Shown: positions 1-26,947, counted from the first letter of the stretch. The stretch: 32,000 nt of DNA from Thermococcus kodakarensis KOD1 (GCF_000009965.1 NC_006624.1:1200001-1232000), one strand, 5' to 3'. Made by a program: numbers and translations. The notes: a model not told the origin generated them from the letters alone.

Positions 1-114
1 ATGCTGTGGGAATGTTAGTTGGGTACAGGTGTTTTGGGAAGGGGTCTAAGACTTGAGAGTTGTTCTGGTGGGGGGTTAGGTTTGCAGTAATTTTTTATTT
101 TCGACAGATTTTTA

Positions 115-480
115 ATGTTCTTTGTTGAGTTTTTATTGGTGGGAGAAGTGGGGAAGAGGAAGAAGCGTGCTGTTGTTCCTGCTGCTGTTCATCCGAGTGT
201 TCCGGGTATGGGGACGATTACGGTTCAGCGTACTACGTCGGTTGAGATTGTTATTTCTGGTCCTCGGCCTTCTCCTGAGGAGGTGGATAAGTTGATTAAG
301 GAGAAGACTCTTTCTCGTGAGGATGCTCTTGAGTTCTATGAGTCTTTGGTTGAGGATATTCGTGAGATGTATGGGACTGCCGATCTTGAGGAGCTTGAGA
401 AGATGGCTATGGAAAGCGAGGATTTGTGGCTTGAGGAGCATGTTTGGGATCTGAGGATGTACCACGCGCTCAAGGGATGA
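115..480 (+). CDS. Hypothetical protein, element-borne (121 aa; acidic C-terminal half)
   Basis: Uninterrupted ORF with the same foreign codon style as its neighbour. AT-rich TATA-like run (ttttttatttt) about 15-25 nt upstream. The stop is 3 nt before the next ATG. No recognisable domain. Confidence 0.5.
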   Translation: MFFVEFLLVGEVGKRKKRAVVPAAVHPSVPGMGTITVQRTTSVEIVISGPRPSPEEVDKLIKEKTLSREDALEFYESLVEDIREMYGTADLEELEKMAMESEDLWLEEHVWDLRMYHALKG

Positions 481-483
481 GCT

Positions 484-1023
484 ATGGATTCTGTTTTTGA
501 GGTTCATTCTCGGCCGTTAGAGTCAGATGAGGATGTGTCCTCTTGGATTCGGGGGAAGGTTAGGGAGATTGTTGCTGATGTGGAGATGTTTAAGCGTAGT
601 GGTGTTGTGAGGGATTATTGGATTGTTAGTGCTGATGGTATGTTGGATGTGAGGGGTGTTTTTCGGGATGGGACTGTTTTCGCTCTTCGTGTGAGTTTTA
701 TGGTTGAGGATGTAAGCTTGGGGAAGATTGTGTTTTGTGATGTTAGTTTTTCGTGGGTTTCTCCTCATGAGAAGACGCGTAGGGTGCTTAGGAATGTGAG
801 GGATTTGGGGAGGGAGTTTAGGTCTGTTAAGTTTAATCGTGCTTTTTCGGAGAAGGAGGGTGCTTCTATTTTGGTTCGGTGGGACAATAAGCCGTATCAT
901 TCTGAGGCTGGGAGTTGGCCTTTTCACAAGCATTTTGGTGGGAGGAAGGTTCCTGCGAGTAGGTCTCAGGAGCAGTCGGTTGGCGGGTTTTTCGAGTTTG
1001 TGAAGGTTCATTTGGGTAGGTAA
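484..1023 (+). CDS. Hypothetical protein, element-borne (179 aa)
   Basis: ORF tightly coupled to the upstream gene (TGA-gct-ATG) with the same GT-rich codon usage. No motif I can name. Confidence 0.5.
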   Translation: MDSVFEVHSRPLESDEDVSSWIRGKVREIVADVEMFKRSGVVRDYWIVSADGMLDVRGVFRDGTVFALRVSFMVEDVSLGKIVFCDVSFSWVSPHEKTRRVLRNVRDLGREFRSVKFNRAFSEKEGASILVRWDNKPYHSEAGSWPFHKHFGGRKVPASRSQEQSVGGFFEFVKVHLGR

Positions 1024-1243
1024 TGGGGTTGTTCTGGCGGTGGGTTTCACGTTCTTTTCGTCATGTGTCGTTCCTGGTCGGAGGTCCTGCTGCCGAGCTG
1101 CTGCAGGACCAGGACAAAAAGAAGGCACGAGCGGGCTTTTTTGGTGTTCTTTTCTGTACTTTACGACGGGTGTCGGGTTAAAGTTGTTCAATTCGTAAGG
1201 CTTTTAGGCTAAAAATTTATAAAGTCTGGTGGGTGTTTTCGTC

Positions 1244-1660
1244 ATGGTAAAATCGTCTGGTGTGTCTGGACACTCCTATGCTGGGGAGCGGGAGCAGGCT
1301 GGAGCGCGGAAGCGGAGGAAGCCGAGGCGCCTTTCACCGCGTCTGCACATTACGCTACCGCCAGAGATATACTGGAAGGCCAAGGAGCGCTGGGATAACG
1401 TGAGCCGCGTGGTTGCGAGCTTGCTTGAGGTGGCTTTGTCTGAGGATTTGACGGTTGAGGAGGTCGTGACGGCGGTTACGCTTATTAGGAGCGGCGCTTT
1501 GGTGGTGAATTCGCCTTTGGGTGCGGGGGTTGCCGAGCCTGGTCAAAGGCGGTGGACTCAAGATCCACTCCCGCAGGGGTTCCGGGGTTCAAATCCCCGC
1601 CCCCGCACCACAGAAACTTTGCAGTGCAAAGTTTCATCAAAGAGTGAATGTCCTTTTTAA
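1244..1660 (+). CDS. Element-end ORF reading through tRNA-Leu. The N-terminal part looks ribbon-helix-helix-like. Possibly the N-terminal fragment of a split SSV-type integrase.
   Basis: ATG at 1244 lies about 27 nt downstream of the TATA-like AAAAATTTATAAAG (1211-1224), so a leaderless start is plausible. The segment LHITLPPEIYWKAKERWDNVSRVVASLLEVAL fits a strand-helix-helix pattern. From about codon 94 the frame runs through the tRNA gene (1523-1610), so that part is att/tRNA sequence rather than free coding. Confidence 0.3.
   Translation: MVKSSGVSGHSYAGEREQAGARKRRKPRRLSPRLHITLPPEIYWKAKERWDNVSRVVASLLEVALSEDLTVEEVVTAVTLIRSGALVVNSPLGAGVAEPGQRRWTQDPLPQGFRGSNPRPRTTETLQCKVSSKSECPF
1523..1610 (+). 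tRNA. tRNA-Leu (anticodon CAA), class II with long variable arm, genomically encoded CCA
   Basis: Acceptor stem GCGGGGG/CCCCCGC. Anticodon stem GTGGA/TCCAC with loop CTCAAGA. Variable arm. T arm CGGGG-TTCAAAT-CCCCG. Discriminator A followed by CCA at 1608-1610. Confidence 0.9.
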
Positions 1661-11065: not shown

Positions 11066-11725
11066 ATGAAGGGCTCACGAGCGGTTCTAGGGGCTCTCAT
11101 AATTGGATTAGTTGTCCTTGGGGGCTACCTCTACACCCAGAGGGCCAGTGACCACTCGCCTCAAGTAGACACCAGTAGAGCACAGATTTTAGCCTATCTC
11201 GGCGGTTTGGACTGCTATTCCTATCATGAAAACATCACCACAATCATCGGGGACGAAACCATTGAGTCCTCAATAAATGGGAGCAGGATAAACGGGACGT
11301 ACTACTTTGAGGGCCAGCGCTCCGGACTGCACTGGTACGCCGTTGTCATCAACAACACGCTGAAGGAGCGTATCATGACAAACGGGACCACGAAGGACGT
11401 TAACATCACTCTCTCAAAGGACGAAAGGGCCATGTTCTTATCGGTTGATCCAGTTAAAATGGGTCTTCAGGCCGTCGGGGTGGGAAAACTTGTGGAAAAG
11501 AATAAGGACAAAATTACATACGCCTTTGAGATAACTCTGTCACCGAGCACAGACTTCAAAATGAACGGCACTGTTACCGTCCTCTGGGATGGTGGAAGGG
11601 TCACCAAACTTATATTCAACGTGGAAGTGTGGACACAGGGAAGACAGAGTGAAAATAGAACAATTATCGCAGCAATAAAAGAGAACTGTGTACAGCCCAA
11701 ATGGCTCAAAGAACTATCCCCATAG
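11066..11725 (+). CDS. Membrane-anchored extracellular protein, sequon-rich
   Basis: GGAGGTGA SD, an N-terminal TM helix and 8 N-x-S/T sequons. No catalytic motif. Confidence 0.55.
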   Translation: MKGSRAVLGALIIGLVVLGGYLYTQRASDHSPQVDTSRAQILAYLGGLDCYSYHENITTIIGDETIESSINGSRINGTYYFEGQRSGLHWYAVVINNTLKERIMTNGTTKDVNITLSKDERAMFLSVDPVKMGLQAVGVGKLVEKNKDKITYAFEITLSPSTDFKMNGTVTVLWDGGRVTKLIFNVEVWTQGRQSENRTIIAAIKENCVQPKWLKELSP

Positions 11726-11886
11726 TTTCTTCTGGATTGTCAAAGACCATTACATTATCTCACCTTTTCCCAATCTAGTGTTTTCGCATGTTTAAATATC
11801 AAACTAATTGCAATAACTCAGTATTCCAAAAAGTATTTAAACTCATATTCAAGGTTTATTATGAAACAACATACGGAGGTAATAAT

Positions 11887-12693
11887 ATGAGAAAAATCCT
11901 AACAACATTCCTCCTAGCTATAATAGTAGTTATGAGCGGCTGTATTGGAGAAAATGCTGGACTCACCAAGGAGAAGGTTCTAACGGCTATCCAGAACATA
12001 GAGACTGCCCGCTACAATGAAAGCTTCTCCATGAGCATGAACATATTTGATCCGAACACCAACAAGACGGTCAACGTGACGATGTCAGGCAGCATAGCCG
12101 GAGTCTTCAACAAGAGCGCGGGCATTGAAGCAGGCAATATGAACTTAACAACCCGCATGATGGGGATGGACATAAATATGAACTGGCCGTATTTCACCAA
12201 CGGCTCCGACGTATACTTTAATATCGACGGCAAATGGTACTTCGTCCCATCCAACAATGACCTCCACAACAGAGCCAGAGCCTCTCTAAATGTGGACTAT
12301 ATAGAGAAGCTCCTCAGGGAGAAAAACGTGACTTTCAAAAAACTAGGCGATGTCTACGCCTTCCGCGTTAACGTAACTTTCTGGGAGTTCGTCAACGCTA
12401 CTAACCAGACCACATACCTCAACGAGGCGTGGGGCCCGCTCTCCGACAACATAACGGTCAACACGAACGCTGGCTGGGTCGAGGTCCACTTCAGAGACGA
12501 CGGGACTCCAACGTTTATTGAGACCTACATAGACTTAACAATAATAATCCCTGATGAATTCCTGCAAGAACCCGTAACCATCCACGAGACAATCCACGAT
12601 TCAACGGTCTTTTCAGACATAAACAAGCCCACCAACATAACAATTCCAGAGGGAATAGAAAGCGCAGGAGACTTTGAGGAAGTATTTGGGTGA
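11887..12693 (+). CDS. Putative lipoprotein, sequon-rich
   Basis: Start reset to the ATG at 11887 (GGAGGT-AATAAT-ATG). Signal peptide with lipobox-like VMSGC. 12 N-x-S/T sequons. Confidence 0.6.
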   Translation: MRKILTTFLLAIIVVMSGCIGENAGLTKEKVLTAIQNIETARYNESFSMSMNIFDPNTNKTVNVTMSGSIAGVFNKSAGIEAGNMNLTTRMMGMDINMNWPYFTNGSDVYFNIDGKWYFVPSNNDLHNRARASLNVDYIEKLLREKNVTFKKLGDVYAFRVNVTFWEFVNATNQTTYLNEAWGPLSDNITVNTNAGWVEVHFRDDGTPTFIETYIDLTIIIPDEFLQEPVTIHETIHDSTVFSDINKPTNITIPEGIESAGDFEEVFG

Positions 12694-12697
12694 GGGG

Positions 12698-13042
12698 CTA
12701 AGCGCCCCTCGTGGCCACTATTTTTATCCCTTCCCACTCCGCAACCACTTGGCCAACGCTCACCGGTGCCTTGAGCTTAAGTTTTGCCAGGAACTTCATC
12801 AGCTCTGGTATCTTTTCCTTTGGAACGGGCTCCGCTGTTTTAACGCTCACCGTCGGGAGGGCACCGCCCTCAACTGGGACAACGCTCATGACGACCCTTT
12901 TTGGACTGGTAACTTCCTGAATTGCCCACTCCATTCCCCTAGGGCATTTACAACCCTTTACTTCCTTGACCTTACCGTTTTCGACGTCAACTTCAATGGA
13001 GCATCCGAGGGGGCAGACAATGCACGTGAAGCGGTATATCAT
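12698..13042 (-). CDS. DUF1667 protein (small Cys-rich third subunit of the G3P dehydrogenase-type operon)
   Basis: CIVCPLGC...GCKCPRG N-terminal Cys cluster. 4-nt ATGA overlap with the upstream oxidoreductase gene. Confidence 0.8.
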   Translation of the reverse strand: MIYRFTCIVCPLGCSIEVDVENGKVKEVKGCKCPRGMEWAIQEVTSPKRVVMSVVPVEGGALPTVSVKTAEPVPKEKIPELMKFLAKLKLKAPVSVGQVVAEWEGIKIVATRGA

Positions 13043-14307
13043 GCTCTCACCACCTCAACTGTGAGCCTTTCGCTGGCTTTCTGAATCTCCTCTGCCCTCA
13101 GCTTCAGCCGTATCATCTCGGCGGGTTTAACAACCGGGAGTCTGAGCTTCTTTCCAATCTCGGGAATCCTTAGCTCAACGTTCTCCATCGGCCTGGCGAC
13201 GCGGAGGTAGAGATAAACGTCGCGGTCGCCGCCGAGGTAGTGCGGAGCAATCAGGCGGACGTTCTGGCCCTTCTCAACTTTCACCCACTTCCTGCTCTCT
13301 ATTCCGCCATTCTCTATGAACTCCTTGGCACTCTTAGCCGCTAACTCTCCCTGCTCGGCCACGTAGTCAACGAGGTCGTTTATGAGGAGAGAGTTTCCGG
13401 CAACGAAGATTCCAGGAACGCTGGTTTCAAGACGGTCATTCACGACCGGACCCCCAGTGGCAGGGTCTATCTCGACGCCTATCTTCTTGAGCTTCTTGAC
13501 GCTCGGAATTAATCCAGCGGAGATAACCAGCGTATCGACCTCGATCCAGAACTCGCTTCCAGGAATCTCGTTGAAGTTCTCGTCAACCTTGACTACCCTA
13601 ACCCTCTGAACCCTTCCCTTTCCGCGGACTTCAACGACCTTGTGGCTCAAATAGAGGGGAATGTTGAAATCGCGAAGTATCATGACGTTCCTCGCAAGAC
13701 CGCCAGGATAGGGCATGAGCTCAACGACCGCCTTCACCTTTGCACCCTCAAGGGCGAACCTGCGCGCCATTATTAACCCCACATCTCCAGAGCCGACGAT
13801 GACGACCTCTTTGCCCGGGAGGACGCCGTAAATGTCCATGAGGGTTTGGGCCTCTCCTGCCGTATAGATTCCAGCGACACGGTCTCCTACGATGCCGATC
13901 TCAAAGGCGTGCCTCTCTCTTGCTCCGGCCGCGTAGATGATGGCCTTCGCCCAGACCTGATAAACTCCGGCGGGCGAGGTGAATATCACCACCTTCTCAA
14001 GGTCGGAGTAGTTCTTTATCTCCAGCACCCTCGCGGCTGTCCTGTACTCAACGCCGAGCTCCACCAGGCGCTTAGCGAGCCTCGACGCGAACTCCGGGCC
14101 TGTAAGCTCCTCCTTAAAGTAGTGGAGACCAAAGCCTGGGTGTATGCACTGCGGGAGGATTCCGCCTAAATAATCGTTCTCATCGAGGAGGAGTACGTTG
14201 AGCCCAAGCTCCTTGGCCTTTGCCGCGGCCGCCATTCCAGCCGGGCCACCGCCGATGACAACGACGTCGTAGGAGAGCATCGGTATCTGCGGCATCGGCT
14301 CCATCAT
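13039..14307 (-). CDS. FAD/NAD(P)-binding pyridine-nucleotide-disulfide-family oxidoreductase (NADH-oxidase-like subunit)
   Basis: VVVIGGGPAGMAAA and a second VVIVGSGDVG Rossmann motif. Start overlaps the glpA-like stop (ATGA). Confidence 0.8.
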   Translation of the reverse strand: MMEPMPQIPMLSYDVVVIGGGPAGMAAAAKAKELGLNVLLLDENDYLGGILPQCIHPGFGLHYFKEELTGPEFASRLAKRLVELGVEYRTAARVLEIKNYSDLEKVVIFTSPAGVYQVWAKAIIYAAGARERHAFEIGIVGDRVAGIYTAGEAQTLMDIYGVLPGKEVVIVGSGDVGLIMARRFALEGAKVKAVVELMPYPGGLARNVMILRDFNIPLYLSHKVVEVRGKGRVQRVRVVKVDENFNEIPGSEFWIEVDTLVISAGLIPSVKKLKKIGVEIDPATGGPVVNDRLETSVPGIFVAGNSLLINDLVDYVAEQGELAAKSAKEFIENGGIESRKWVKVEKGQNVRLIAPHYLGGDRDVYLYLRVARPMENVELRIPEIGKKLRLPVVKPAEMIRLKLRAEEIQKASERLTVEVVRA

Positions 14308-15794
14308 GCTTCCTCCCCCCTGAGAAGGGCCTTAACGTCGCCTATTCCAATCTCGCTTCCCCTTCCCTTGAGGGTTACCTCCCAGGGCTCGACGCCGTAT
14401 TCCCTGGCCAAAAGCTGGACAATCTTGGGCCTGCAGAAGCTTCCCTGGCAGGTTCCCGTTGTTGCCTTCGTCCTGAACTTTACGGAATCAACGCTCGGGG
14501 TCTTAACTCCTATGAACTTCATCCTCTCAATGGCCTCAAGGATATCGCCCTCGCTCACGTGGTTGCACCTGCACACTATCTTTCCGTAAGAGGGGTTCTT
14601 CTTTATCAGCTCGTTCGCCTTCTCTGGCGGGAGCATGAAGAAGTGGGTTATATCCTTCCTGTACGGGTTCCACTTTTCCTTCTCCACGAGATTAATTCCT
14701 AGATCGCGCTGGATTATGTCCCTGACCTCGTAGGCTATGGCTGGAGCGCTAGTTAAACCCGGAGAGCGTATTCCCGCGACGTTTATGAAGCCCCATACCT
14801 CTTCCTCAGCCTTGATTATGAAGTCCCCGCCGGTGGGTTCAGGCCTCAGCCCGGCGAAAGTCCTTATCACCTTGCTCTTCGGCGGGAGGTTCGGCCAGAG
14901 CTTTTTAGCACCCTCCCAGACCTCCCTTAGCCCCTCCTCCGTAGTGGCGAGGTTGTCCTTCTCCTCGGGCGGAAGGTCCTGGGCGTTCGGCCCTATCATG
15001 AGGTGGCCGCTTATTTCCGTTGTAACAACGATACCCTTGCTTATCGGCGTCGGCGTCGGGAAGAGAACCCTCCTCGGGCCGGGAACATCGTCGTCAAAGA
15101 GGTAGTATTCACCCTTCCTCGGGTGTATCTCGAAGTAGTCTATTCCGGCCATTCTAGCAATCTCATCGGCGTAGAGGCCTGCGGCGTTTATAACGATGTC
15201 CGCCTCGATGAAGCCGTTGTTGGTCTCGACGCCCTTAACCTCGCCGTTCTCAACCTTTATGCCCCTAACTTCCGTCTCAAGGTGGGTTTTGACGCCGTTA
15301 GCCACGGCGTTCTCAACCAGGGCTATAACCGCTGGAATCGGGCCGATCTGGCCAACTATCGGAACCCATAGAGCACCTATCGCCTCCCTCGTGAGGCCCG
15401 GCTCAAGGTGGAAGAGCTCATCCCTATCAACGATCCTCATTTCGGGGACGCCGTTTCTCCGCCCGCGCTCCAGAAGCTTCTCCAGCTCGTCGAAGTCCTC
15501 TTCCTTCGTGGCGACTATCAGAGCGCCGTTCCACACATGAGGAATTTGAAGCTCCTTAACCCACTGGTGCCAGAGGCGGTTTCCCCTGATGCAGAGCTTT
15601 GCCCTCATCGGATACTTCTCAGGGTCATCATCGTAGCCGCCGTGGATGAGGGCAGTGTTGGCTTTACTGACGCCCCAGCCAACGTCGGGAGCTTTCTCTA
15701 TTAGATGAACTTCCAGATTCTCATATTTGCTCAAGACGCGCGCTATACTCGCACCGCTTATCCCAGCACCGATGATGGCAACCTTGGTCTTCAT
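14304..15794 (-). CDS. glpA: FAD-dependent glycerol-3-phosphate dehydrogenase (GlpA-like, with BFD-type [2Fe-2S]-like CxC...C region)
   Basis: VAIIGAGISGASIA dinucleotide fold. C-terminal CRCNHVSEGD...CQGSFC. Genomic context with glpK. Start reset to the ATG at 15794 (GGAGGT plus 6 nt). Confidence 0.8.
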   Translation of the reverse strand: MKTKVAIIGAGISGASIARVLSKYENLEVHLIEKAPDVGWGVSKANTALIHGGYDDDPEKYPMRAKLCIRGNRLWHQWVKELQIPHVWNGALIVATKEEDFDELEKLLERGRRNGVPEMRIVDRDELFHLEPGLTREAIGALWVPIVGQIGPIPAVIALVENAVANGVKTHLETEVRGIKVENGEVKGVETNNGFIEADIVINAAGLYADEIARMAGIDYFEIHPRKGEYYLFDDDVPGPRRVLFPTPTPISKGIVVTTEISGHLMIGPNAQDLPPEEKDNLATTEEGLREVWEGAKKLWPNLPPKSKVIRTFAGLRPEPTGGDFIIKAEEEVWGFINVAGIRSPGLTSAPAIAYEVRDIIQRDLGINLVEKEKWNPYRKDITHFFMLPPEKANELIKKNPSYGKIVCRCNHVSEGDILEAIERMKFIGVKTPSVDSVKFRTKATTGTCQGSFCRPKIVQLLAREYGVEPWEVTLKGRGSEIGIGDVKALLRGEEA

Positions 15795-15953
15795 GTCCAC
15801 ACCTCCAAACTAAAAGGAAGAACTGATTCTCCAGTTTTAAAGCTTTCTTTAACCTTTAGTTTGGCTTAACGGAGATTAAAGAACGATTTTGGGCACAAAA
15901 AGGGAGAACAGAGGAGAACATGCCTCAAATGTATGAACATGTCCATGCCCTAT

Positions 15954-17090
15954 TTAGTATTCCTCTGCTTCATTCTCCATTTCTGTATCTTTAACCATTA
16001 TTAGTAGGGTGTTTATCCCAACGGATCCCTCTGGATGCTCAGGATCCTTAGGGAATTCAGGCCCAGATGGATTATCAAATGGATTCAAACCAATGAAGTA
16101 TTCATCAGTATTGTCAAATCTATTGAACTGAGAAACTAAGTAGCTTAAGTACATCCCTCTTTGTAGCTTGTTCTTCTTTTTTAGCCCTCCCAATGTTGAA
16201 ACTCTATGGGCAGTATCACTTAGAAGATCATGGATGATATGATTCCATCCACACTGACGGGAGCTAGAAAGACTAAGATTTGTGGAAAACGCCCACCCGT
16301 CATAACCTATCATCATTCCATAAATAGAACATCCAAATGGATAATTATGGCAACAACACCATGGGAAATAACAGATCCATGGGGGGCAATAGTATGACTT
16401 GTCACTGTCTAAAAATTCAAGTCTTGTTGTTTCACATTCCGGATAAATTCTGAGGTATTTTAAACCCCGTGATCTAGGTCTTCTCCAAGGGAATCTACGA
16501 GAATAAGTTTGGGGGTTTTGGTTTCCTTGTGTTCTGTGTCCACAGTTTTGTGTAGTAATACTGCAGGAGTTATTTTTAATATTACATTCGTCCGGTCTAG
16601 AAAACCTAAATCTAACATTCTCTTCGTATAATACATATTGGGCATCCTCCACTGGGTTATTACCAATCTTGGCTTGAGACAGAAACGCCCTGTTTATTAG
16701 AGGAAGGTTGTTCTGATCAACAAACGTGAATATAACGAGGAGATCACCTATTTCGCATCTCTTTTTGGATAGCCCACGGACACGAGGGTGATTGGGATCC
16801 AATTCTACTATGGGACTTTGATGGACAAAGATTCCCCCAAACTTTAGTTGAAAACCCTCTTTATCAAGTTTGTTTCCAGGTTTAGAATTAGGGAGAACAT
16901 TGTTTAGATATTCGAGACCATATCTTAGATATGCTCCTACATAAGTTGGTTCACTAGGGCGAGGATGATTTCTTACATGTGAAAATGCGTACCGCCAGCT
17001 GTTTTCTGAAAATATAAGAATTTCTCCCCAGTGCTTTTTTATTATTCTTCTAAATTTTTGATACCTGGATTGAATAGTGTATTTTCCCAT
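15954..17090 (-). CDS. Orphan Cys/Trp/Pro-rich protein of unknown function (378 aa from the ATG at 17090)
   Basis: Long uninterrupted ORF in AT-rich DNA, where random long ORFs are unlikely. GGTGAT SD 4 nt upstream of the ATG at 17090 (alternatives at 17096 and 17150). No signal peptide or TM helix. Contains YYCPPWICYFPWCCCHNYPFGC and CNIKNNSCSITTQNCGH clusters. No family I recognise. Confidence 0.55.
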   Translation of the reverse strand: MGKYTIQSRYQKFRRIIKKHWGEILIFSENSWRYAFSHVRNHPRPSEPTYVGAYLRYGLEYLNNVLPNSKPGNKLDKEGFQLKFGGIFVHQSPIVELDPNHPRVRGLSKKRCEIGDLLVIFTFVDQNNLPLINRAFLSQAKIGNNPVEDAQYVLYEENVRFRFSRPDECNIKNNSCSITTQNCGHRTQGNQNPQTYSRRFPWRRPRSRGLKYLRIYPECETTRLEFLDSDKSYYCPPWICYFPWCCCHNYPFGCSIYGMMIGYDGWAFSTNLSLSSSRQCGWNHIIHDLLSDTAHRVSTLGGLKKKNKLQRGMYLSYLVSQFNRFDNTDEYFIGLNPFDNPSGPEFPKDPEHPEGSVGINTLLIMVKDTEMENEAEEY

Positions 17091-17167
17091 TACCATCACC
17101 AGAAAAACTTTGTTGAGAAATAGTTTTAAATATTTTGTTATAAACATCATAACAAGAGATACTAAAA
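17091..17167. promoter_or_regulatory. Shared 77-bp divergent promoter region of the islet genes
   Basis: Near-palindromic AT tract TTTTAAATATTTT (17124-17136) and TTATAAAC (17138-17145). The ATG at 17168 lies about 25 nt downstream of the second, which suggests a leaderless OLD mRNA. On the opposite strand AAAATATTTAAAAC lies about 30-35 nt upstream of the partner gene start. Confidence 0.4.
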
Positions 17168-19129
17168 ATGAGGATAGTCGAAATTGAGGTTAATAATTTC
17201 AGGTCACTAAGAGCTGTAAAAATGCCCCTCGATGAACTTACAGTGTTGATCGGGAGAAATGGAGCTGGAAAATCATCGCTATTGCAGGCATTAGATTTGT
17301 TTTTTAACCCAAATGCCAAGTATTCCGAGGAAGACTTCTATAACAGAGATACGAGCAAACCCATACGAATTGCCATTAAATTTAGACTTGAGAACGATAA
17401 AGAACGTGAGGAATTTCAAAAATATGTGATAAATGAAGACAATGATCATGACTATATAAAAGTCGTGAAGATTATGAAATTTCCAGCATCAAAATCCAAC
17501 CAGTCTTACCATGGAGTTGTCAAGAGTATTCCCCAGTTTTCAAACTTACCTTCGAGGAAAGAGGACTTAATAGAAAGATACAAAGGGCTACAGAAAGAAT
17601 TTCCCGATTTACCCCATTTAGGGAGTAAGCCTACTAAGAAAAAGATTCTTGAAGCACTTGAAGAGTACAAAAACTCGCATCCTGAGAAATGGGAAGAAAC
17701 ACTGCAAGAAGACCAGTTTTTTGGATATAAAGAAGTCGGTCATGGAAAGATTGACAAGTTTATAAAGTTCTTATTAGTGCCCGCAGTTAAAAGTGTCTCT
17801 GAAGAGACTGAATACAAAAAGGGGAGTATTATTACAGAACTTACCCAATTGATAATAGAAGAACATATAAGGTCAATTCCTGAGTTTAATCGTCTAGAAA
17901 AGAGGTATAAACACTTACTTAAAAGTCTAGAGGCACACAGAAAAACAGGAAAGGATAAGCTATTCTCTGAACTTAGCAACGAGCTAACACAAATCCTAGA
18001 AAAATTTGCACCAAATACACAAGCCAACATCAGTTGGGGTAATCTAGATGATTTCAAGATCCCACTACCAGTCCCAACTGTGTTAGTTACAGAAGACGGT
18101 TTCGAAACGAGTGCCGAACGAGTTGGTCATGGTACGCAAAGGGCTCTTTTGTTCTCTTTATTGCAGTATATGACTGCAAAAAGACATGAACTCAATAAAA
18201 TGAAAAATGTGGGTAGAGATTCAGATGAAAAAGATCAGAAATTAACTCTACTTTTGGTTATTGAAGAACTAGAGTTATATCAACACCCTCAGCGTCAAAA
18301 GCATCTGCACAAATTATTCAAGGATCTTGCTGGGAATACTTTTGGTGGATTTAATATACAGGTAATGTACTCCACTCATTCTCCTTTTTTAATTAGTACT
18401 GACACATTTGATAGCCTGAGAGTATTCAAGAAAATTAAAACCCAAAAATCACGTAAACTAAGAGAGACCAAAATTTATTGGTATCCACAACAGGAACTTC
18501 AGAAAGACCTAAAACGCTACGGGATAGACTCCCCATCAAAACACGTTAAAAAATTCACGACTACAGTAAATCCTGTGATGAGTGAAGGATTCTTCGCGGA
18601 TAAAGTAGTATTAGTTGAGGGAGAAAGTGACAGAGCCGCTCTAGAGGTCGTTGCTGAACATAACGGTGTTGACCTCAATGGCAACAATATTTCAATAATC
18701 CCCGTAGGCGGGAAGGGGAACATACTTACGGCATATTTAATGTTTAATGGATTTAATATTCCAACGTACCCTATATGGGATCTAGACCTGTATCCCGATG
18801 AAATGAACAAAAAATTGTTTAGTGCAGTACAGTACAAAACTAAAAGGACACCTACTTCCCCTATTGTGAGGAAGAATTTCGCAGTCTTTAACAAAAATTT
18901 AGAAGACGTAATAAAAAACGACTTAGGTGAGAAAAATTGGGGGGTGTTGTTTAGTAAACTAAAACGAGAAAATCTTGTCATTAGTGGAAAGGATTTAAAG
19001 AATTATACCCCCATGAGACGATTCATTGAACTATGGTATTATCCACCAAATGACATCAAAGACAGGTTATCCCGCGATGCCTCTCTTAAAATACTGGAAA
19101 GAATAGTTGAAAAGATATCACGATTGTAG
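17168..19129 (+). CDS. OLD-family ATP-dependent nuclease (ABC-type ATPase domain plus C-terminal Toprim domain)
   Basis: Walker A GRNGAGKSS (nt 17252-17278). Signature-like VGHGTQRALLFSLL. Walker B LLLVIEELELYQHP. H-loop YSTHSP. Toprim VVLVEGESDRAALE (from nt 18605) and a downstream WDLDLYPDE acidic motif. Confidence 0.85.
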   Translation: MRIVEIEVNNFRSLRAVKMPLDELTVLIGRNGAGKSSLLQALDLFFNPNAKYSEEDFYNRDTSKPIRIAIKFRLENDKEREEFQKYVINEDNDHDYIKVVKIMKFPASKSNQSYHGVVKSIPQFSNLPSRKEDLIERYKGLQKEFPDLPHLGSKPTKKKILEALEEYKNSHPEKWEETLQEDQFFGYKEVGHGKIDKFIKFLLVPAVKSVSEETEYKKGSIITELTQLIIEEHIRSIPEFNRLEKRYKHLLKSLEAHRKTGKDKLFSELSNELTQILEKFAPNTQANISWGNLDDFKIPLPVPTVLVTEDGFETSAERVGHGTQRALLFSLLQYMTAKRHELNKMKNVGRDSDEKDQKLTLLLVIEELELYQHPQRQKHLHKLFKDLAGNTFGGFNIQVMYSTHSPFLISTDTFDSLRVFKKIKTQKSRKLRETKIYWYPQQELQKDLKRYGIDSPSKHVKKFTTTVNPVMSEGFFADKVVLVEGESDRAALEVVAEHNGVDLNGNNISIIPVGGKGNILTAYLMFNGFNIPTYPIWDLDLYPDEMNKKLFSAVQYKTKRTPTSPIVRKNFAVFNKNLEDVIKNDLGEKNWGVLFSKLKRENLVISGKDLKNYTPMRRFIELWYYPPNDIKDRLSRDASLKILERIVEKISRL

Positions 19130-19135
19130 GGTATA

Positions 19136-20629
19136 TCAATTTGATTTTGCACTATCAACGACCTTTGCCCACCCCATAGCCCTCTTTACTGCTTCTTTCC
19201 AGCCTTTGTAGAGTCTCTCCCTAGTTTTCTCATCCATCTTCGGCTCGAAAATTCTTTCAGCCTTCCACAGCTCGGCTATTTCTCTCGTGTCCGCCCAATA
19301 ATCAACGGCAAGCCCCGCGAGGTAAGCGGCGCCAAGAGCCGTTGTCTCCTTCACGACGGGCCTTATCACCTTTCTGTTCAAGATGTCCGCCTGGAACTGC
19401 ATGAGAAAGTCGTTTGCGGTGGCGCCACCATCGACGCGGAGCTCCTTGATCTGGACGAGCTTTTCCATCTCGTCAACAACATCCCTGGTAAGGTATGCTA
19501 TCGCCTCAAGCGTCGCCCTCGCGAGATGCTCCCTGCCCGTGCCGCGCGTTATGCCGATTATAATGCCCCTGGCAAACTGATCCCAGTAGGGAGCCCCTAG
19601 ACCAACGAAGGCGGGAACGAAATAAACGCCTTCGTTGCTCTCAAGCTTTGTGGCGAGTTCCTCTGTCTCAGAGGCATGCTTTATGATTTTTATTCCGTCT
19701 CTGAGCCACTGGACTGCCGCTCCAGTTACGAAAATGCTCCCCTCGAGGGCGTAGCTGACCCTTCCATTTAGGCCCCATGCTATCGTCGTGAGCAGGTTGT
19801 CCGAATAGAGCACCATCTTGTCCGTGTTCACGAGGATAAAGCTCCCCGTACCATAGGTGGCCTTCACCATTCCCGCCTCGAACGCCGCCTGTCCGAAGAG
19901 GGCCGCCTGCTGGTCACCTGCATCGCCGCTTACGGGAATCTCAGCCCCGAGAAGCTCCTTCTTTGTGTAGCCGTAAACTTCACTAGACTCCCTGACCTCA
20001 GGTAAAACGCTCTCAGGAATGTCGAAGAGCTCAAGGAGCTCATCGTCCCAGTCGAGCTTCTTAATGTTGAAGAGCATCGTCCTTGAGGCATTGGAATAGT
20101 CCGTAACGTGCTCTCCTGTAAGGCGGTAGATGAGGAAGGTATCGACCGTTCCGAACATCACCTCGCCTTTCTCGGCCTTCTCCCTTAAACCTGGAACGTT
20201 GTCAAGGAGCCACTTGAGCTTCGAGGCAGAAAAGTAGGCATCGGGGACGAGGCCGGTCTTCTCCTTTATCATCGTCCCGTACTCACGCTTTATCTCCTCA
20301 ACCATTTCAGCCGTTCTTCTGCACTGCCAGACTATTGCGTTGTAGAGCGGCTTACCATCTTTGTCCCATACAAGCGTCGTCTCGCGCTGGTTGGTAACTC
20401 CTATCGCCGCTATCTGATTCGGCTCTATTCTAGCGCTCTGGATGGCATCTTTTATCGCCCTGAGCTGGGCGTCCCATATCTCCTCGGGATTGTGCTCGAC
20501 CCATCCCGGCCTTGGATAGTGCTGGGGGAACTCATACTGGCCTATTCCGTGGATGTTGCTCTCCCTGTCGAAGATTATTGCCCTGGCGGAAGTTGTACCC
20601 TCGTCAAGAGAAAGAACGAACTTTTCCAT
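19136..20629 (-). CDS. glpK: Glycerol kinase
   Basis: [21 protein letters not shown]..., [10 protein letters not shown] and DGGATAN motifs. Start reset from the TTG at 20635 to the ATG at 20629 (GGTGAT plus 5 nt), giving 497 aa. Confidence 0.92.
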
Positions 20630-20678
20630 CTGCAATCACCTAAGAAAAATTAGAGGAAAGAGAACTTATTAGACTTGC

Positions 20679-26800: not shown

Positions 26801-26947
26801 ATTCAAGAAAAATCCAAGGATTCTTGAAAAGAATGAATCGTGGCCTCGGCTAACCCTCTTTTCCTCATCAGTCAGCGTGGCTAACGCTCGTCATCGGCCG
26901 AGGAGAGTTAGGGAGAACTCTTTTAAAAAGCAACCGGAAAATAAGAC

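What the first reader, a model, noticed from the sequence alone, without database searches (positions are those of the whole stretch)
15897..19135. Low-GC islet pairing a full-length OLD-family nuclease with an orphan protein, inserted in the middle of the glycerol catabolic cluster
**Seen in sequence.**
- About 3.2 kb of visibly AT-rich DNA, with A/T-ending codons, sits between glpK and the promoter of the glpA-like operon. Together with the two GDPD genes upstream of glpK, these would otherwise form one co-oriented minus-strand catabolic cluster.
- The islet holds exactly two genes, head-to-head across a 77-bp AT-rich region.
- One is a 653-aa protein with all OLD hallmarks: Walker A, ABC signature-like motif, Walker B IEELE..HP, H-loop THSP, and Toprim EGESD plus a DLD motif.
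- The other is a 378-398-aa protein with no recognisable family.

**Established knowledge.**
- OLD-family ATPase-Toprim nucleases are the effector cores of several anti-phage systems: P2 Old, Gabija GajA with the helicase GajB, PARIS AriA/AriB, and retron-associated OLDs.
- OLD classes are defined by their partner gene.

**Inference.**
- This may be an archaeal, hyperthermophile OLD variant whose partner is neither a UvrD-type helicase nor a reverse transcriptase but a novel Cys-rich protein. That would make it a candidate new two-component defence or exclusion module.
- The caveat is that the genes are divergent rather than co-transcribed. The OLD gene could be a stand-alone class-1 type and the neighbour an unrelated passenger.
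Basis: partly seen in the sequence, partly recalled or inferred. Interest (0 to 1): 0.85.

Follow-up and report, generated by a model that had tools for sequence, protein, structure and literature searches.

The report
AT-rich two-nuclease defence islet in Thermococcus
A small foreign-looking DNA insert in the glycerol genes of Thermococcus kodakarensis carries a known type of anti-virus nuclease (OLD) next to a protein from a previously unnamed family that looks like a second nuclease, but the evidence that the two must work together is weak.

Summary
The window is T. kodakarensis KOD1. The islet holds TK1394 (378 aa, minus strand) and TK1395 (653 aa, plus strand). Its GC is 0.37, against 0.52 for the rest of the window. 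It lies between glpK and the glpA-like operon.

TK1395 is an intact OLD ABC-ATPase/Toprim nuclease and is closest to Class 1. A 2025 preprint already reported this AT-rich, horizontally acquired pair and the OLD homology.

New here:
- **TK1394 is a real gene.** dN/dS is 0.17-0.21, it is transcribed, and it has a conserved ribosome-binding site.
- **It is not an orphan.** A profile search finds at least 165 unnamed relatives. Their invariant residues and predicted alpha-beta-beta-beta-alpha-beta core fit a RecB-like PD-(D/E)xK nuclease, but no structure search confirmed this.
- **Its relatives sit in defence loci.** They lie inside helicase-methylase defence operons and never beside an OLD gene.
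- **The pair recurs, but in only one place.** It is found in four Thermococcus lineages, always at this locus.
- **OLD relatives lack the partner.** Those at 52-64% identity have no partner, and neither do 80 more distant loci.

Best reading: two defence genes that share a site and a promoter region but can function separately (0.5). An obligate two-protein system remains possible (0.3).

The parts
15954..19129 (.). AT-rich islet (TK1394 + TK1395), GC 0.372 against 0.516 for the rest of the window
   Evidence: The same two genes, with the same low GC (0.35-0.39), sit at the glpK 3' end in L001, L002 and L090.
15954..17090 (-). TK1394, 378 aa: member of an unnamed family; predicted RecB-like PD-(D/E)xK nuclease
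   Evidence: 100% match to TK1394. dN/dS is 0.17-0.21. A profile search finds 165 relatives. The AF2 model has pLDDT 84.8 and pTM 0.88. Normalised dRNA-seq counts are 21-572.
16626..16958 (-). Conserved core of TK1394: E47 (helix), FVH90QSP, C112-E113-I-G-D116, Q139-A-K141, Q151-xxx-Y155
   Evidence: These columns are invariant or nearly invariant in alignments of 42, 119 and 58 sequences. Predicted elements are H47-68, E80-88, E117-124, E130-142, H149-156 and E160-165, with pLDDT above 90.
16329..16388 (-). Cys-rich stretch CPPWICYFPWCCCHNYPFGC of TK1394, an insertion specific to the Thermococcus clade
   Evidence: the Thermococcus sequences have 8-13 Cys between residues 165 and 282, against a family median of 2. 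Only C112 is universal. pLDDT here is lower, 54-74.
17091..17167 (.). 77-bp divergent promoter spacer
   Evidence: Four loci were aligned. The primary TSS of TK1395 is at 17154 (Jager 2014 Table S2).
17126..17136 (.). Invariant TATA-like element TTAAATATTTT, about 33 nt from each start codon and centred about 23-26 nt upstream of the TK1395 TSS
   Evidence: It is invariant in all four loci. The sequence was read and the TSS comes. Its promoter function is inferred.
17095..17100 (-). GGTGAT ribosome-binding motif of TK1394, which supports M21 as the start
   Evidence: GGTGA is conserved in all four loci. The sequence was read.
17168..19129 (+). TK1395, 653 aa: OLD-family ABC ATPase + Toprim nuclease, closest to Class 1
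   Evidence: The best solved relative is 6P74, the Thermus scotoductus Class 1 OLD, at 6.6e-23. dN/dS is 0.11-0.15.
17168..18397 (+). ABC ATPase domain of TK1395 (aa 1-410): Walker A at 17252-17275, GHGTQR at 18125-18142, Walker B at 18257-18274, H-loop at 18371-18385
   Evidence: Pfam AAA_15 matches residues 1-409. The columns are invariant in the 34-sequence alignment.
18590..18787 (+). Toprim domain of TK1395 (aa 475-540): VEGESD at 18614-18631 and WDLD at 18776-18787
   Evidence: Pfam OLD-like_TOPRIM matches residues 475-540. E484, G485, D488, D538 and D540 are invariant.
19136..20635 (-). glpK (flank). Its stop codon lies 6 bp from the TK1395 stop codon, which marks the right junction of the islet
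   Evidence: The gap is 17-20 bp in L001 and L002. The glpK C-terminal tails differ between loci.
14304..15800 (-). glpA-like FAD dehydrogenase TK1393 (flank). Its promoter region, 15801-15953, forms the left junction
   Evidence: The primary TSS is at 15811.

Best explanation
The islet is an old, horizontally acquired mini defence island. It holds two nuclease-type defence genes that share a site and a promoter region but are probably separable modules, not an obligate two-protein machine.

**TK1395** is an intact Class-1-type OLD enzyme. Its ABC ATPase domain would sense or load onto DNA, and its Toprim domain would nick or cut invading DNA, or host DNA as an abortive response. These activities are known for Class 1 OLDs such as P2 Old, TsOLD and Vibrio cholerae OLD. 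They are inferred here, not shown.

**TK1394** belongs to an unnamed family. Its invariant residues are E47, H90, E113, D116, Q139-x-K141 and Q151-xxx-Y155. Together with the predicted alpha-beta-beta-beta-alpha-beta core, they fit a RecB/Cas4-like PD-(D/E)xK nuclease. I infer it is a second DNA-cutting effector of the 'auxiliary/backup nuclease' kind, which in bacteria is embedded in helicase-methylase restriction-like operons.

**Shown:**
- the anatomy of the islet;
- the conservation of the pair;
- purifying selection on both genes;
- transcription of both genes;
- the membership of TK1394 in this family;
- the genomic contexts of both families.

**Inferred:**
- nuclease activity of TK1394;
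- a defence role in Thermococcus;
- co-regulation from the shared TATA-like element.
For: **OLD identity and intact motifs:**

**The OLD clade is modular.**
- 79 of the 80 retrieved loci could be scored for neighbours, and no single neighbour is constant across them.
- The recurrent neighbours are a DUF1156 methylase (18 loci), an SNF2+NOV_C helicase (10), an N6_N4 methylase (7) and RmuC (4).
- These neighbours are HmaA and HmaB. The hma operon is a documented insertion hotspot for other defence genes (PMC11232893).
- Toprim-OLD is described as a recruited backup effector of BREX-related systems (PMC12839542).
- A Class 1 OLD can defend on its own (PMC12392090).

**OLD occurs without the partner.**
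- L003 and L004: 52% identity, intact, arranged FBPase>OLD>AFOR.
- T. aggregans: 64% identity, but broken.

**The partner is a real gene.**
- dN/dS is 0.17-0.21.
- The SD motif is conserved.
- Read counts are about half those of TK1395 and exceed the glp flanks in most libraries.

**Partner family and nuclease-like motifs:**. The AF2 model has pLDDT above 90 over residues 10-160, with the expected strand and helix order.

**Partner relatives sit in defence operons without OLD.**
- Type III RM plus a DrmD-like SNF2 helicase (L085-87, L113).
- DrmMI/Type IIG methylase (L089, L093, L094, L099).
- Type-2 BREX-related: DUF3780, DUF1156 methylase and PLD-helicase (L115).
- PDC-S11 with a Type I R-like protein (L083).
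- Sources.

**The two genes have different histories.** For window against L002, dS is 0.60 for OLD, 1.24 for the partner and 1.2-1.8 for the flanks. OLD DNA identity (0.81-0.92) exceeds that of glpK (0.73-0.82), while the partner is lower (0.63-0.76).
Against: - The pair is kept head-to-head, with an invariant central TATA-like element, in all four carriers.
- The partner has never been seen without OLD in Thermococcus.
- The one lineage where this OLD clade has lost the partner context and is not in a MAG (T. aggregans) has a broken OLD.
- In one branch of the partner family (L085/86 and L087), the gene sits 4-12 bp downstream of an SMC/ABC-type ATPase, and the two have co-diverged: the ATPases are 30% identical and the partner relatives 36%. 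The family can therefore be a dedicated partner of an ABC ATPase.
- The nuclease assignment of TK1394 has no significant structural or profile match.
- No defence phenotype is known.
- No primary TSS was called for TK1394.
Confidence: 0.5

Rival explanations
1. TK1394 and TK1395 form an obligate two-component system, in effect a new OLD class. The OLD ABC ATPase senses the invader and controls TK1394 as a second effector nuclease, or TK1394 controls OLD. This would resemble AriA/AriB, LmuB/LmuA, and the OLD-ABC dyads with PD-(D/E)xK nucleases.
For: - The divergent pair is conserved in four lineages. OLD is 66-92% identical and the partner 61-77%, and both genes give the same tree topology.
- A single invariant TATA-like element lies equidistant from both start codons.
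- Both genes are under purifying selection.
- Both are expressed at similar levels, above the glp flanks in most libraries.
- Distant partner relatives are conserved immediately downstream of an ABC/SMC ATPase.
- OLD-ABC ATPases paired with PD-(D/E)XK nucleases are reported in 594 taxa (PMC12839542).
- The partner is never found without OLD in Thermococcus.
Against: - All co-occurrences trace to one locus, and so to one event.
- No partner homologue lies in 80 other OLD loci, and no OLD lies in about 13 other partner contexts.
- An intact solo OLD exists at 52% identity.
- The genes are divergently transcribed, not operonic.
- OLD and the partner have about two-fold different dS between the same genomes. 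This suggests OLD alleles were exchanged without the partner.
- A partner relative 57% identical to an ATPase-linked one has no ATPase beside it.
Confidence: 0.3
2. TK1394 is not a defence nuclease. It could be a regulator, a structural protein or a domesticated passenger. In that case only TK1395 matters for defence, and the nuclease-like motifs are a coincidence or belong to an inactive fold.
For: - There is no significant match to any nuclease by Foldseek (PDB, BFVD), by profile against PDB sequences, by Pfam, by PADLOC or by hhalign.
- Q replaces the usual acidic residue in the (D/E)xK motif.
- Some relatives lie among housekeeping genes (L084, L117).
- No primary TSS was called for TK1394.
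Against: - Eight polar residues are invariant or nearly so across 119 sequences that are otherwise about 14% identical per column. This argues for an active site.
- Their order and their placement on the predicted secondary structure follow the RecB-family motifs I-IV.
- Seven of about 13 contexts are helicase/methylase defence operons, where the gene is co-directional and tightly packed.
Confidence: 0.12
3. The islet is a decaying remnant of a larger mobile element or helicase-methylase system. Its two genes would then be leftovers with no current function.
For: - Relatives of both genes normally live inside larger helicase-methylase operons.
- The islet is AT-rich and shows many internal and antisense TSSs.
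- The T. aggregans copy is broken.
Against: - Both ORFs are intact in four lineages, with dN/dS of 0.11-0.21 despite saturated or near-saturated dS.
- All catalytic motifs are intact.
- Both genes are transcribed.
- There are no flanking repeats, tRNA or integrase remnants.
Confidence: 0.05

Closest known systems
Class 1 OLD family nucleases (P2 Old, Thermus scotoductus OLD 6P74, Vibrio cholerae OLD, E. coli YbjD)
   Same: [quoted passage not shown]
- All catalytic motifs are present.
- No adjacent UvrD helicase or reverse transcriptase.
- The best solved-structure match is TsOLD, at 6.6e-23.
   Different: - 653 aa, against 528 for TsOLD.
- From a hyperthermophilic archaeon.
- It has a conserved divergent neighbour that is itself a likely defence gene. 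Class 1 is defined as 'single genes not proximal to other candidate defence genes' (PMC10568477).
- Its bacterial clade-mates are often embedded between HmaA and HmaB.
OLD-ABC dyads with alternative nucleases, and Toprim-OLD 'backup effectors' recruited by BREX and BREX-related (Hma / Type-1 and Type-2 BR) systems (PMC12839542)
   Same: - An OLD-type ABC ATPase lies next to a predicted PD-(D/E)xK-type nuclease.
- Relatives of both TK1395 and TK1394 are found inside DUF1156-methylase/SNF2-helicase loci.
   Different: - Here the OLD keeps its own Toprim nuclease, so the pair would carry two nuclease domains.
- No helicase, methylase or DUF499 is nearby.
- The genes are divergent, not operonic.
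- The partner family is not one of the named nuclease families.
Gabija (GajA/GajB), PARIS (AriA/AriB) and retron-OLD
   Same: - The ATPase/Toprim chemistry is shared.
- PADLOC models for AriA, Old and GajA all match TK1395.
   Different: - No GajB-type helicase.
[quoted passage not shown]
- No DUF4435.
- No reverse transcriptase or ncRNA.
- GajA matches only the first ~86 residues in the PDB search.
Lamassu (LmuB SMC-like ATPase + LmuA effector nuclease)
   Same: In L085/86 and L087 a partner relative lies directly downstream of a LmuB-like ABC ATPase (PADLOC LmuB 3e-23 and 6e-21) and a 59-aa gene. This is the logic of an ATPase paired with an effector nuclease.
   Different: - No LmuA or LmuC model matches the partner family.
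- The Thermococcus locus has an OLD, not an SMC-like LmuB.
- The gene order and orientation differ.
RecB/Cas4/AddB-type PD-(D/E)xK nucleases
   Same: - The motif order matches: E (helix), G-D (strand), x-K (strand), QxxxY (helix).
- The predicted core is alpha-beta-beta-beta-alpha-beta.
   Different: - Q139 replaces the acidic residue of (D/E)xK.
- An extra invariant E113 and H90 are present.
- There is no conserved 4-Cys iron-sulfur staple.
- No significant sequence or structure match was obtained.

Membership tests
OLD family nuclease | N-terminal ABC-type ATPase with Walker A, signature-like motif, Walker B and H-loop | tested here: met
   Pfam AAA_15 scores 2.5e-70 over residues 1-409. The motifs are at aa 29-36, 320-325, 364-369 and 402-406 and fall in invariant columns of the 34-sequence alignment.
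OLD family nuclease | C-terminal Toprim domain with a conserved Glu and a DxD | tested here: met
   Pfam OLD-like_TOPRIM scores 2.9e-19 (69.8 bits against a cutoff of 23.2). E484, D488, D538 and D540 are invariant.
Class 1 OLD | No UvrD/PcrA/Rep-like helicase immediately downstream; no reverse transcriptase or ncRNA | tested here: met
   The neighbours are glpK and TK1394. There is no Rfam retron match in the window.
Class 1 OLD | Closer in sequence to Class 1 than to Class 2 enzymes | tested here: met
   [quoted passage not shown] GajA entries score about 3e-8 and cover residues 2-86 only.
Class 1 OLD | Single gene not proximal to other candidate defence genes (definition in PMC10568477) | tested here: inconclusive
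   TK1394 is a conserved neighbour, and its relatives lie in defence operons. Whether it is a defence gene here is unproven.
Class 1 OLD | Lacks the helical insert in the Toprim domain that is typical of Class 2 | not tested
   No structural model of TK1395 was made.
Gabija (Class 2 OLD) | GajB UvrD-like helicase adjacent to the OLD gene | tested here: not met
   There is no helicase ORF within the islet or its flanks.
PARIS (Class 4) | Separate AriA ATPase and AriB (DUF4435/Toprim) genes | tested here: not met
   ATPase and Toprim are fused in one 653-aa ORF. The top PADLOC 'AriA' hit spans only the generic AAA_15 region, residues 1-409.
Retron-associated OLD (Class 3) | Adjacent reverse transcriptase and msr/msd ncRNA | tested here: not met
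   There is no RT domain in the neighbours and no Rfam family in the islet.
PD-(D/E)xK nuclease superfamily (for TK1394) | Core alpha-beta-beta-beta-alpha-beta with D at the start of strand 2 and (D/E)xK in strand 3 | tested here: inconclusive
   The predicted elements and the invariant D116 and Q139-x-K141 fall in the expected places. However, Q replaces D/E, and the model coordinates could not be inspected.
PD-(D/E)xK nuclease superfamily (for TK1394) | Significant structural or profile similarity to a known member | tested here: not met
RecB/Cas4-type nuclease (for TK1394) | QxxxY motif in the helix after the xK strand | tested here: met
   In the 119-sequence alignment Q151 is invariant and Y155 nearly invariant (both invariant in the 42- and 58-sequence sets), within predicted helix 149-156.
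RecB/Cas4-type nuclease (for TK1394) | Four conserved Cys forming an iron-sulfur staple (Cas4/AddB subgroup) | tested here: not met
   Only C112 is universal. The Cys-rich stretch is restricted to the Thermococcus clade.
Two-gene defence system (OLD + TK1394 family) | Partner homologues recur next to OLD genes in independent genomic contexts | tested here: not met
   There are four co-occurrences, all at the glpK 3' junction. No partner homologue is present in 80 other OLD loci, and no OLD is present in the other partner contexts.

The most novel reading that the evidence does not exclude
TK1394 and TK1395 form a physical complex in which an OLD ABC-ATPase/Toprim enzyme is coupled to a second nuclease from a previously unrecognised RecB-like family. 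This would be a fifth genomic class of OLD system. It would also imply that the TK1394 family is a general 'plug-in' effector for ABC/SMC ATPases and helicase-methylase restriction systems in both bacteria and archaea.
Probability: 0.25. Interest if true: 0.7.

Novelty: new variant of a known kind. Interest (0 to 1): 0.45.

Why it matters
**For OLD biology.**
- No Class 1-type OLD has been studied in archaea.
- T. kodakarensis is genetically tractable, so the roles of TK1394 and TK1395 can be separated with simple deletions.

**For TK1394.**
- It anchors an unnamed protein family with a conserved nuclease-like active-site pattern.
- At least 165 cluster representatives were found, from metagenomes and from the few sequenced genomes that carry the family.
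- Members recur inside Type III, Type IIG and BREX-related helicase-methylase operons.
- Naming and testing this family would add a component to the catalogue of auxiliary defence effectors.

**What is already known.** The islet, its horizontal origin and the OLD homology were published in a 2025 preprint. That part is not new.

Tried and rejected
- **Genome scan with the single OLD protein.** It found nothing because the peptide patterns were poorly conserved. It was repeated with an alignment. The KOD1 and T. barossii genomes themselves were not returned by that scan.
- **AF2 on the 5-sequence alignment.** The model was unusable, with pLDDT 38. It was redone with 58 sequences.
- **Structure searches.**
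  - Foldseek against PDB and BFVD found nothing significant.
- **Sequence and profile searches for a known relative of the partner.** None gave a usable hit:
  - the profile against PDB sequences;
  - Pfam and PADLOC on all 58 family members;
  - hhalign against small RmuC and NOV_C alignments built from fetched loci, with probability below 1%.
- **Iron-sulfur or zinc cluster as a family feature.** Rejected, because only C112 is conserved.
- **Integration signatures.** There are no meaningful flanking direct or inverted repeats, no tRNA nearby and no tandem repeats.
- **Retron or ncRNA partner.** None was found.
- **Mobile-element origin.**
  - TK1394 and P0295 have no tblastn match in the phage or plasmid collections.
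  - TK1395 matches only distant plasmid OLDs, at 25-29% identity.
- **OLD as the HmaC component of Hma.** Rejected, because HmaC is a DUF499 ATPase (PMC11232893). The OLD is an insertion between hmaA and hmaB.
- **Bacterial promoter and terminator scan.** Not informative for an archaeon.
- **Metagenome locus scan with the 42-sequence alignment.** It failed because the alignment was too divergent. It was repeated with 22 closer sequences.

Full report
**1. What is there**

The window is Thermococcus kodakarensis KOD1. The 378-aa ORF is a 100% match to TK1394. Window coordinates equal genome coordinates minus 1,200,000 (Jager et al. 2014, PMC4247193, Tables S2 and S7).

GC falls to 0.32-0.40 between 16000 and 19000, against 0.52-0.57 in the flanks. 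Over 15954-19129 GC is 0.372, against 0.516 for the rest of the window. GC3 is 0.33-0.35 in the islet genes, against 0.66-0.70 in the flanking genes.

The islet holds two genes:
- TK1394, 15954-17090, minus strand.
- TK1395, 17168-19129, plus strand.

The flanks are all on the minus strand:
- glpK. Its stop codon is only 6 bp from the TK1395 stop codon.
- Two GDPD genes.
- The glpA-like gene, an NADH-oxidase-like gene and DUF1667.

The 398-aa reading of TK1394 is not supported. The homologues start at M21, and a conserved GGTGA motif precedes that ATG in all four loci. The spacer is therefore 77 bp.

**2. Already known**

A bioRxiv preprint of December 2025 (10.64898/2025.12.08.692931) makes these points:
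- TK1394-1395 is an AT-rich pair that breaks a synteny block shared among Thermococcales.
- The pair was probably acquired horizontally.
- TK1395 is an OLD-family homologue.
- The pair forms much of a heat-induced clustering region, HICR6.

The partner protein is not analysed in the passages of that preprint I read.

**3. TK1395**

TK1395 matches Pfam AAA_15 (2.5e-70) and OLD-like_TOPRIM (2.9e-19). All ATPase and Toprim catalytic motifs are intact and fall in invariant columns of a 34-sequence alignment.

The best solved relative is the Class 1 OLD of Thermus scotoductus (6P74, 6.6e-23, matching both domains). GajA matches only the first ~86 residues. There is no helicase, reverse transcriptase or retron RNA nearby. 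By the published scheme (PMC7049728, PMC10568477) it is Class-1-like.

Full-length relatives at 30-39% identity are common in archaea and bacteria: 594 proteins and 288 genomic loci.

Of the 80 retrieved loci, 79 could be scored for neighbours. No neighbour is universal. The recurrent ones are:
- a DUF1156 methylase, in 18 loci;
- an SNF2+NOV_C helicase, in 10 loci;
- an N6_N4 methylase, in 7 loci;
- RmuC, in 4 loci.

PADLOC identifies the first two as HmaB and HmaA (1e-116 and 1e-179). HmaC is a DUF499 ATPase, not an OLD. The hma operon is a documented hotspot into which other defence genes insert (PMC11232893). Toprim-OLD enzymes are described as recruited backup effectors of BREX-related systems (PMC12839542). 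This OLD clade therefore behaves as a mobile, self-contained module.

**4. TK1394 is a real gene in a real family**

The word-indexed search of 5.8 billion proteins found only five close relatives at 58-65% identity. A profile of those five, scored against 1.84 billion representatives, found 165 proteins at E <= 1e-3 and 35 at E <= 1e-10. Most are 280-380 aa. None has a Pfam domain or a name.

Alignments of 42, 119 and 58 members have mean column identity of only 14-31%. Even so, these residues are invariant or nearly so:
- E47;
- H90, in f-v-H-Q-x-P;
- C112-E113-x-G115-D116;
- Q139-x-K141;
- Q151-xxx-Y155;
- W282;
- R311.

With the 58-sequence alignment, AlphaFold2 gives pLDDT 84.8 and pTM 0.88, with pLDDT above 90 over residues 10-160. 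The predicted elements are helix 47-68, strand 80-88, strand 117-124, strand 130-142, helix 149-156 and strand 160-165.

This arrangement places:
- E47 at the start of the first core helix;
- D116 at the start of one strand;
- Q-x-K in the following strand;
- QxxxY in the next helix.

From established knowledge, this is the order of motifs I-IV of RecB/Cas4-type PD-(D/E)xK nucleases.

This assignment remains an inference for these reasons:
- Foldseek found nothing significant in PDB or BFVD. A few insignificant hits happen to be PD-(D/E)xK proteins.
- Profile-to-PDB, Pfam, PADLOC and hhalign tests were all negative.

Only C112 is universal.

dN/dS is 0.17-0.21 for TK1394 and 0.11-0.15 for TK1395. 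Normalised dRNA-seq counts in Jager et al. are:

| Gene | Counts across five libraries |
|---|---|
| TK1394 | 312 / 572 / 287 / 360 / 21 |
| TK1395 | 552 / 1376 / 583 / 582 / 85 |

These exceed the glp flanks in most libraries. A primary TSS was called for TK1395 at window 17154. None was called for TK1394, which has only internal and antisense sites.

**5. Does the pair recur?**

The same head-to-head pair is present in four loci:
- KOD1 (the window);
- T. barossii (L001);
- a Logan contig (L002);
- a JGI metagenome contig (L090).

In every case it sits directly after the glpK stop codon, and in every case it is AT-rich: GC 0.35-0.39 and GC3 0.29-0.35.

OLD identities are 66-92% and partner identities 61-77%. 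Both genes give the same topology. The spacers share an invariant TTAAATATTTT about 33 nt from each start codon and about 23-26 nt upstream of the mapped TK1395 TSS. That is compatible with one TBP site serving both directions, which is an inference.

These four loci represent one locus and one acquisition. Outside it:
- **Thermococci MAGs (L003, L004).** An intact OLD at 52% identity, also AT-rich, sits alone between FBPase and AFOR. T. barossii has the same outer neighbours, but here there are no glp genes and no partner.
- **T. aggregans (L112).** An OLD at 64% identity is broken into fragments of 389 and 150 aa, and there is no partner.
- **Other OLD loci.** None of the 80 contains a partner relative, even when searched with the broad family profile.

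**6. Where partner relatives live**

About 13 distinct contexts were recovered. Seven are helicase/methylase defence loci, and in them the gene is co-directional and tightly packed:

| Loci | Gene order |
|---|---|
| L085/86 | DrmD-like SNF2 > 59 aa > LmuB-like ABC ATPase > FAM > ... AIPR > Type III Mod > Res |
| L087 | Similar to L085/86 |
| L113/114 | SNF2 > AIPR > 167 aa > FAM > Type III Mod > Res |
| L089/93/94 | SNF2 > DrmMI/Type IIG methylase > FAM > M78-like > ... GmrSD |
| L099 | helicase > Eco57I-like methylase > 396 aa > FAM |
| L115/116 | DUF3780 > DUF1156 methylase > PLD-helicase > FAM (a Type-2 BREX-related system, with a CBASS operon next door) |
| L083 | FAM > PDC-S11 > ... Type I R-like |

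'FAM' marks the TK1394-family gene. None of these contexts has an OLD.

An N-terminal Walker-A ABC ATPase lies next to the family member only in Thermococcus, in L085/86 and in L087. In the latter two, the ATPase and the family member have co-diverged, at 30% and 36% identity. That branch therefore does have an ABC-ATPase partner. However, a member 57% identical to the L085 one has no ATPase beside it.

**7. Different histories within the islet**

Between KOD1 and L002, dS values are:

| Gene | dS |
|---|---|
| OLD | 0.60 |
| partner | 1.24 |
| glpA | 1.17 |
| glpK | 1.76 |

Between L002 and L090, dS is 0.25 for OLD and 0.72 for the partner.

DNA identity in 200-bp windows tells the same story:

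| Region | DNA identity |
|---|---|
| OLD | 0.81-0.92 |
| glpK | 0.73-0.82 |
| glpA | 0.80-0.86 |
| partner | 0.63-0.76 |

The estimator is crude for AT-biased genes. The pattern still suggests that OLD alleles have moved between lineages more recently than the partner or the flanks. That fits separable modules better than a co-adapted complex.

**8. Verdict**

- **Most likely (0.5).** A small, anciently acquired defence islet holds a Class-1-type OLD and a second, predicted PD-(D/E)xK-like nuclease from an unnamed defence-island family. The two share a site and probably a promoter region but are functionally separable.
- **Alive (0.3).** An obligate OLD-plus-partner system. In its favour are the conserved arrangement and the ATPase-linked branch of the family. 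It also fits the published theme of OLD-ABC ATPases paired with alternative nucleases (PMC12839542).
- **Less likely.** A non-nuclease passenger (0.12) or a decaying remnant (0.05).

Novelty is modest. The OLD is a new member of a known kind, and the islet is already reported. The new points are the partner family and its recurrent placement in helicase-methylase operons.

Noticed in passing
window 17168-19129 vs 15954-17090; L002 7952-11080; L090 256-3402: The OLD gene is less diverged than both its partner and the housekeeping flanks. For KOD1 against L002, dS is 0.60 for OLD, 1.24 for the partner and 1.2-1.8 for glpA and glpK. OLD DNA identity is 0.81-0.92, against 0.73-0.82 for glpK. This may reflect recent exchange of OLD alleles between Thermococcus lineages.
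   Followed up: partly
window 15954-19129: Jager et al. 2014 Table S2 lists 11 transcription start sites in the 3.2-kb islet. Internal sites are at 15966, 16434, 16838, 17892, 18573 and 19025. Antisense sites are at 16487, 17430, 17763 and 18523. The primary site is at 17154. This looks like pervasive initiation in AT-rich DNA. No primary TSS is listed for TK1394.
   Followed up: partly
L003 2067-7683; L004 4540-10874: Thermococci MAGs carry an intact, AT-rich solo OLD (52% identity) between FBPase and AFOR. T. barossii has the same outer neighbours, but there the glp genes and the partner lie in between. This region may be a recurrent insertion or rearrangement spot.
   Followed up: partly
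L112 6500-10000 (Thermococcus aggregans CP099582): An OLD orthologue (64% identity) is split into ORFs of 389 and 150 aa. It lies in an AT-rich stretch with two unannotated upstream ORFs (171 and 256 aa) and near a GDPD gene. There is no TK1394 homologue.
   Followed up: partly
L001 11347-14086 vs window 13039-15800 and L002 11309-14061: The glpA/NADH-oxidase genes of T. barossii are only 61-66% identical to those of KOD1 and L002, which are 91-93% identical to each other. glpK, on the other side of the islet, is 86-89% identical in all three. The islet therefore sits at a boundary between segments with different histories.
   Followed up: no
L085 5452-9107; L086 1707-5362; L087 5475-9128: A conserved three-gene module lies inside Type III RM / DrmD-like helicase loci: a 59-aa protein, a ~785-aa LmuB-like ABC ATPase and a TK1394-family protein. 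The ATPases are 30% identical between loci. This may be an unrecognised Lamassu-like module.
   Followed up: partly
L115 1-8155 and 8177-12527: A Type-2 BREX-related locus (DUF3780, DUF1156 methylase, PLD-helicase) ends with a TK1394-family gene. It abuts a CBASS operon with SMODS, HORMA, an AAA (Trip13-like) protein and Cap17-like_N.
   Followed up: no
L010, L013, L021 and 15 other OLD loci (for example L010 2277-10973): Bacterial relatives of TK1395 are inserted between hmaA (SNF2+NOV_C) and hmaB (DUF1156 methylase). This extends the reported list of genes that occupy the hma insertion hotspot.
   Followed up: partly
window 26844-26898 (-): A C/D-box sRNA, sR34 (Rfam RF01273), scores 79.5 bits.
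   Followed up: no
window 1-1500 and 1523-1610: The first kilobase has a very strong strand asymmetry: GC skew +0.45 to +0.54 and AT skew -0.26 to -0.34. A tRNA-Leu (CAA) lies at 1523-1610, followed by a lower-GC stretch at 1500-2500. This is unexplained.
   Followed up: no
window 11501-12000: A second, short GC dip (0.38) lies at the junction of ORFs 11066-11725 and 11788-12693.
   Followed up: no
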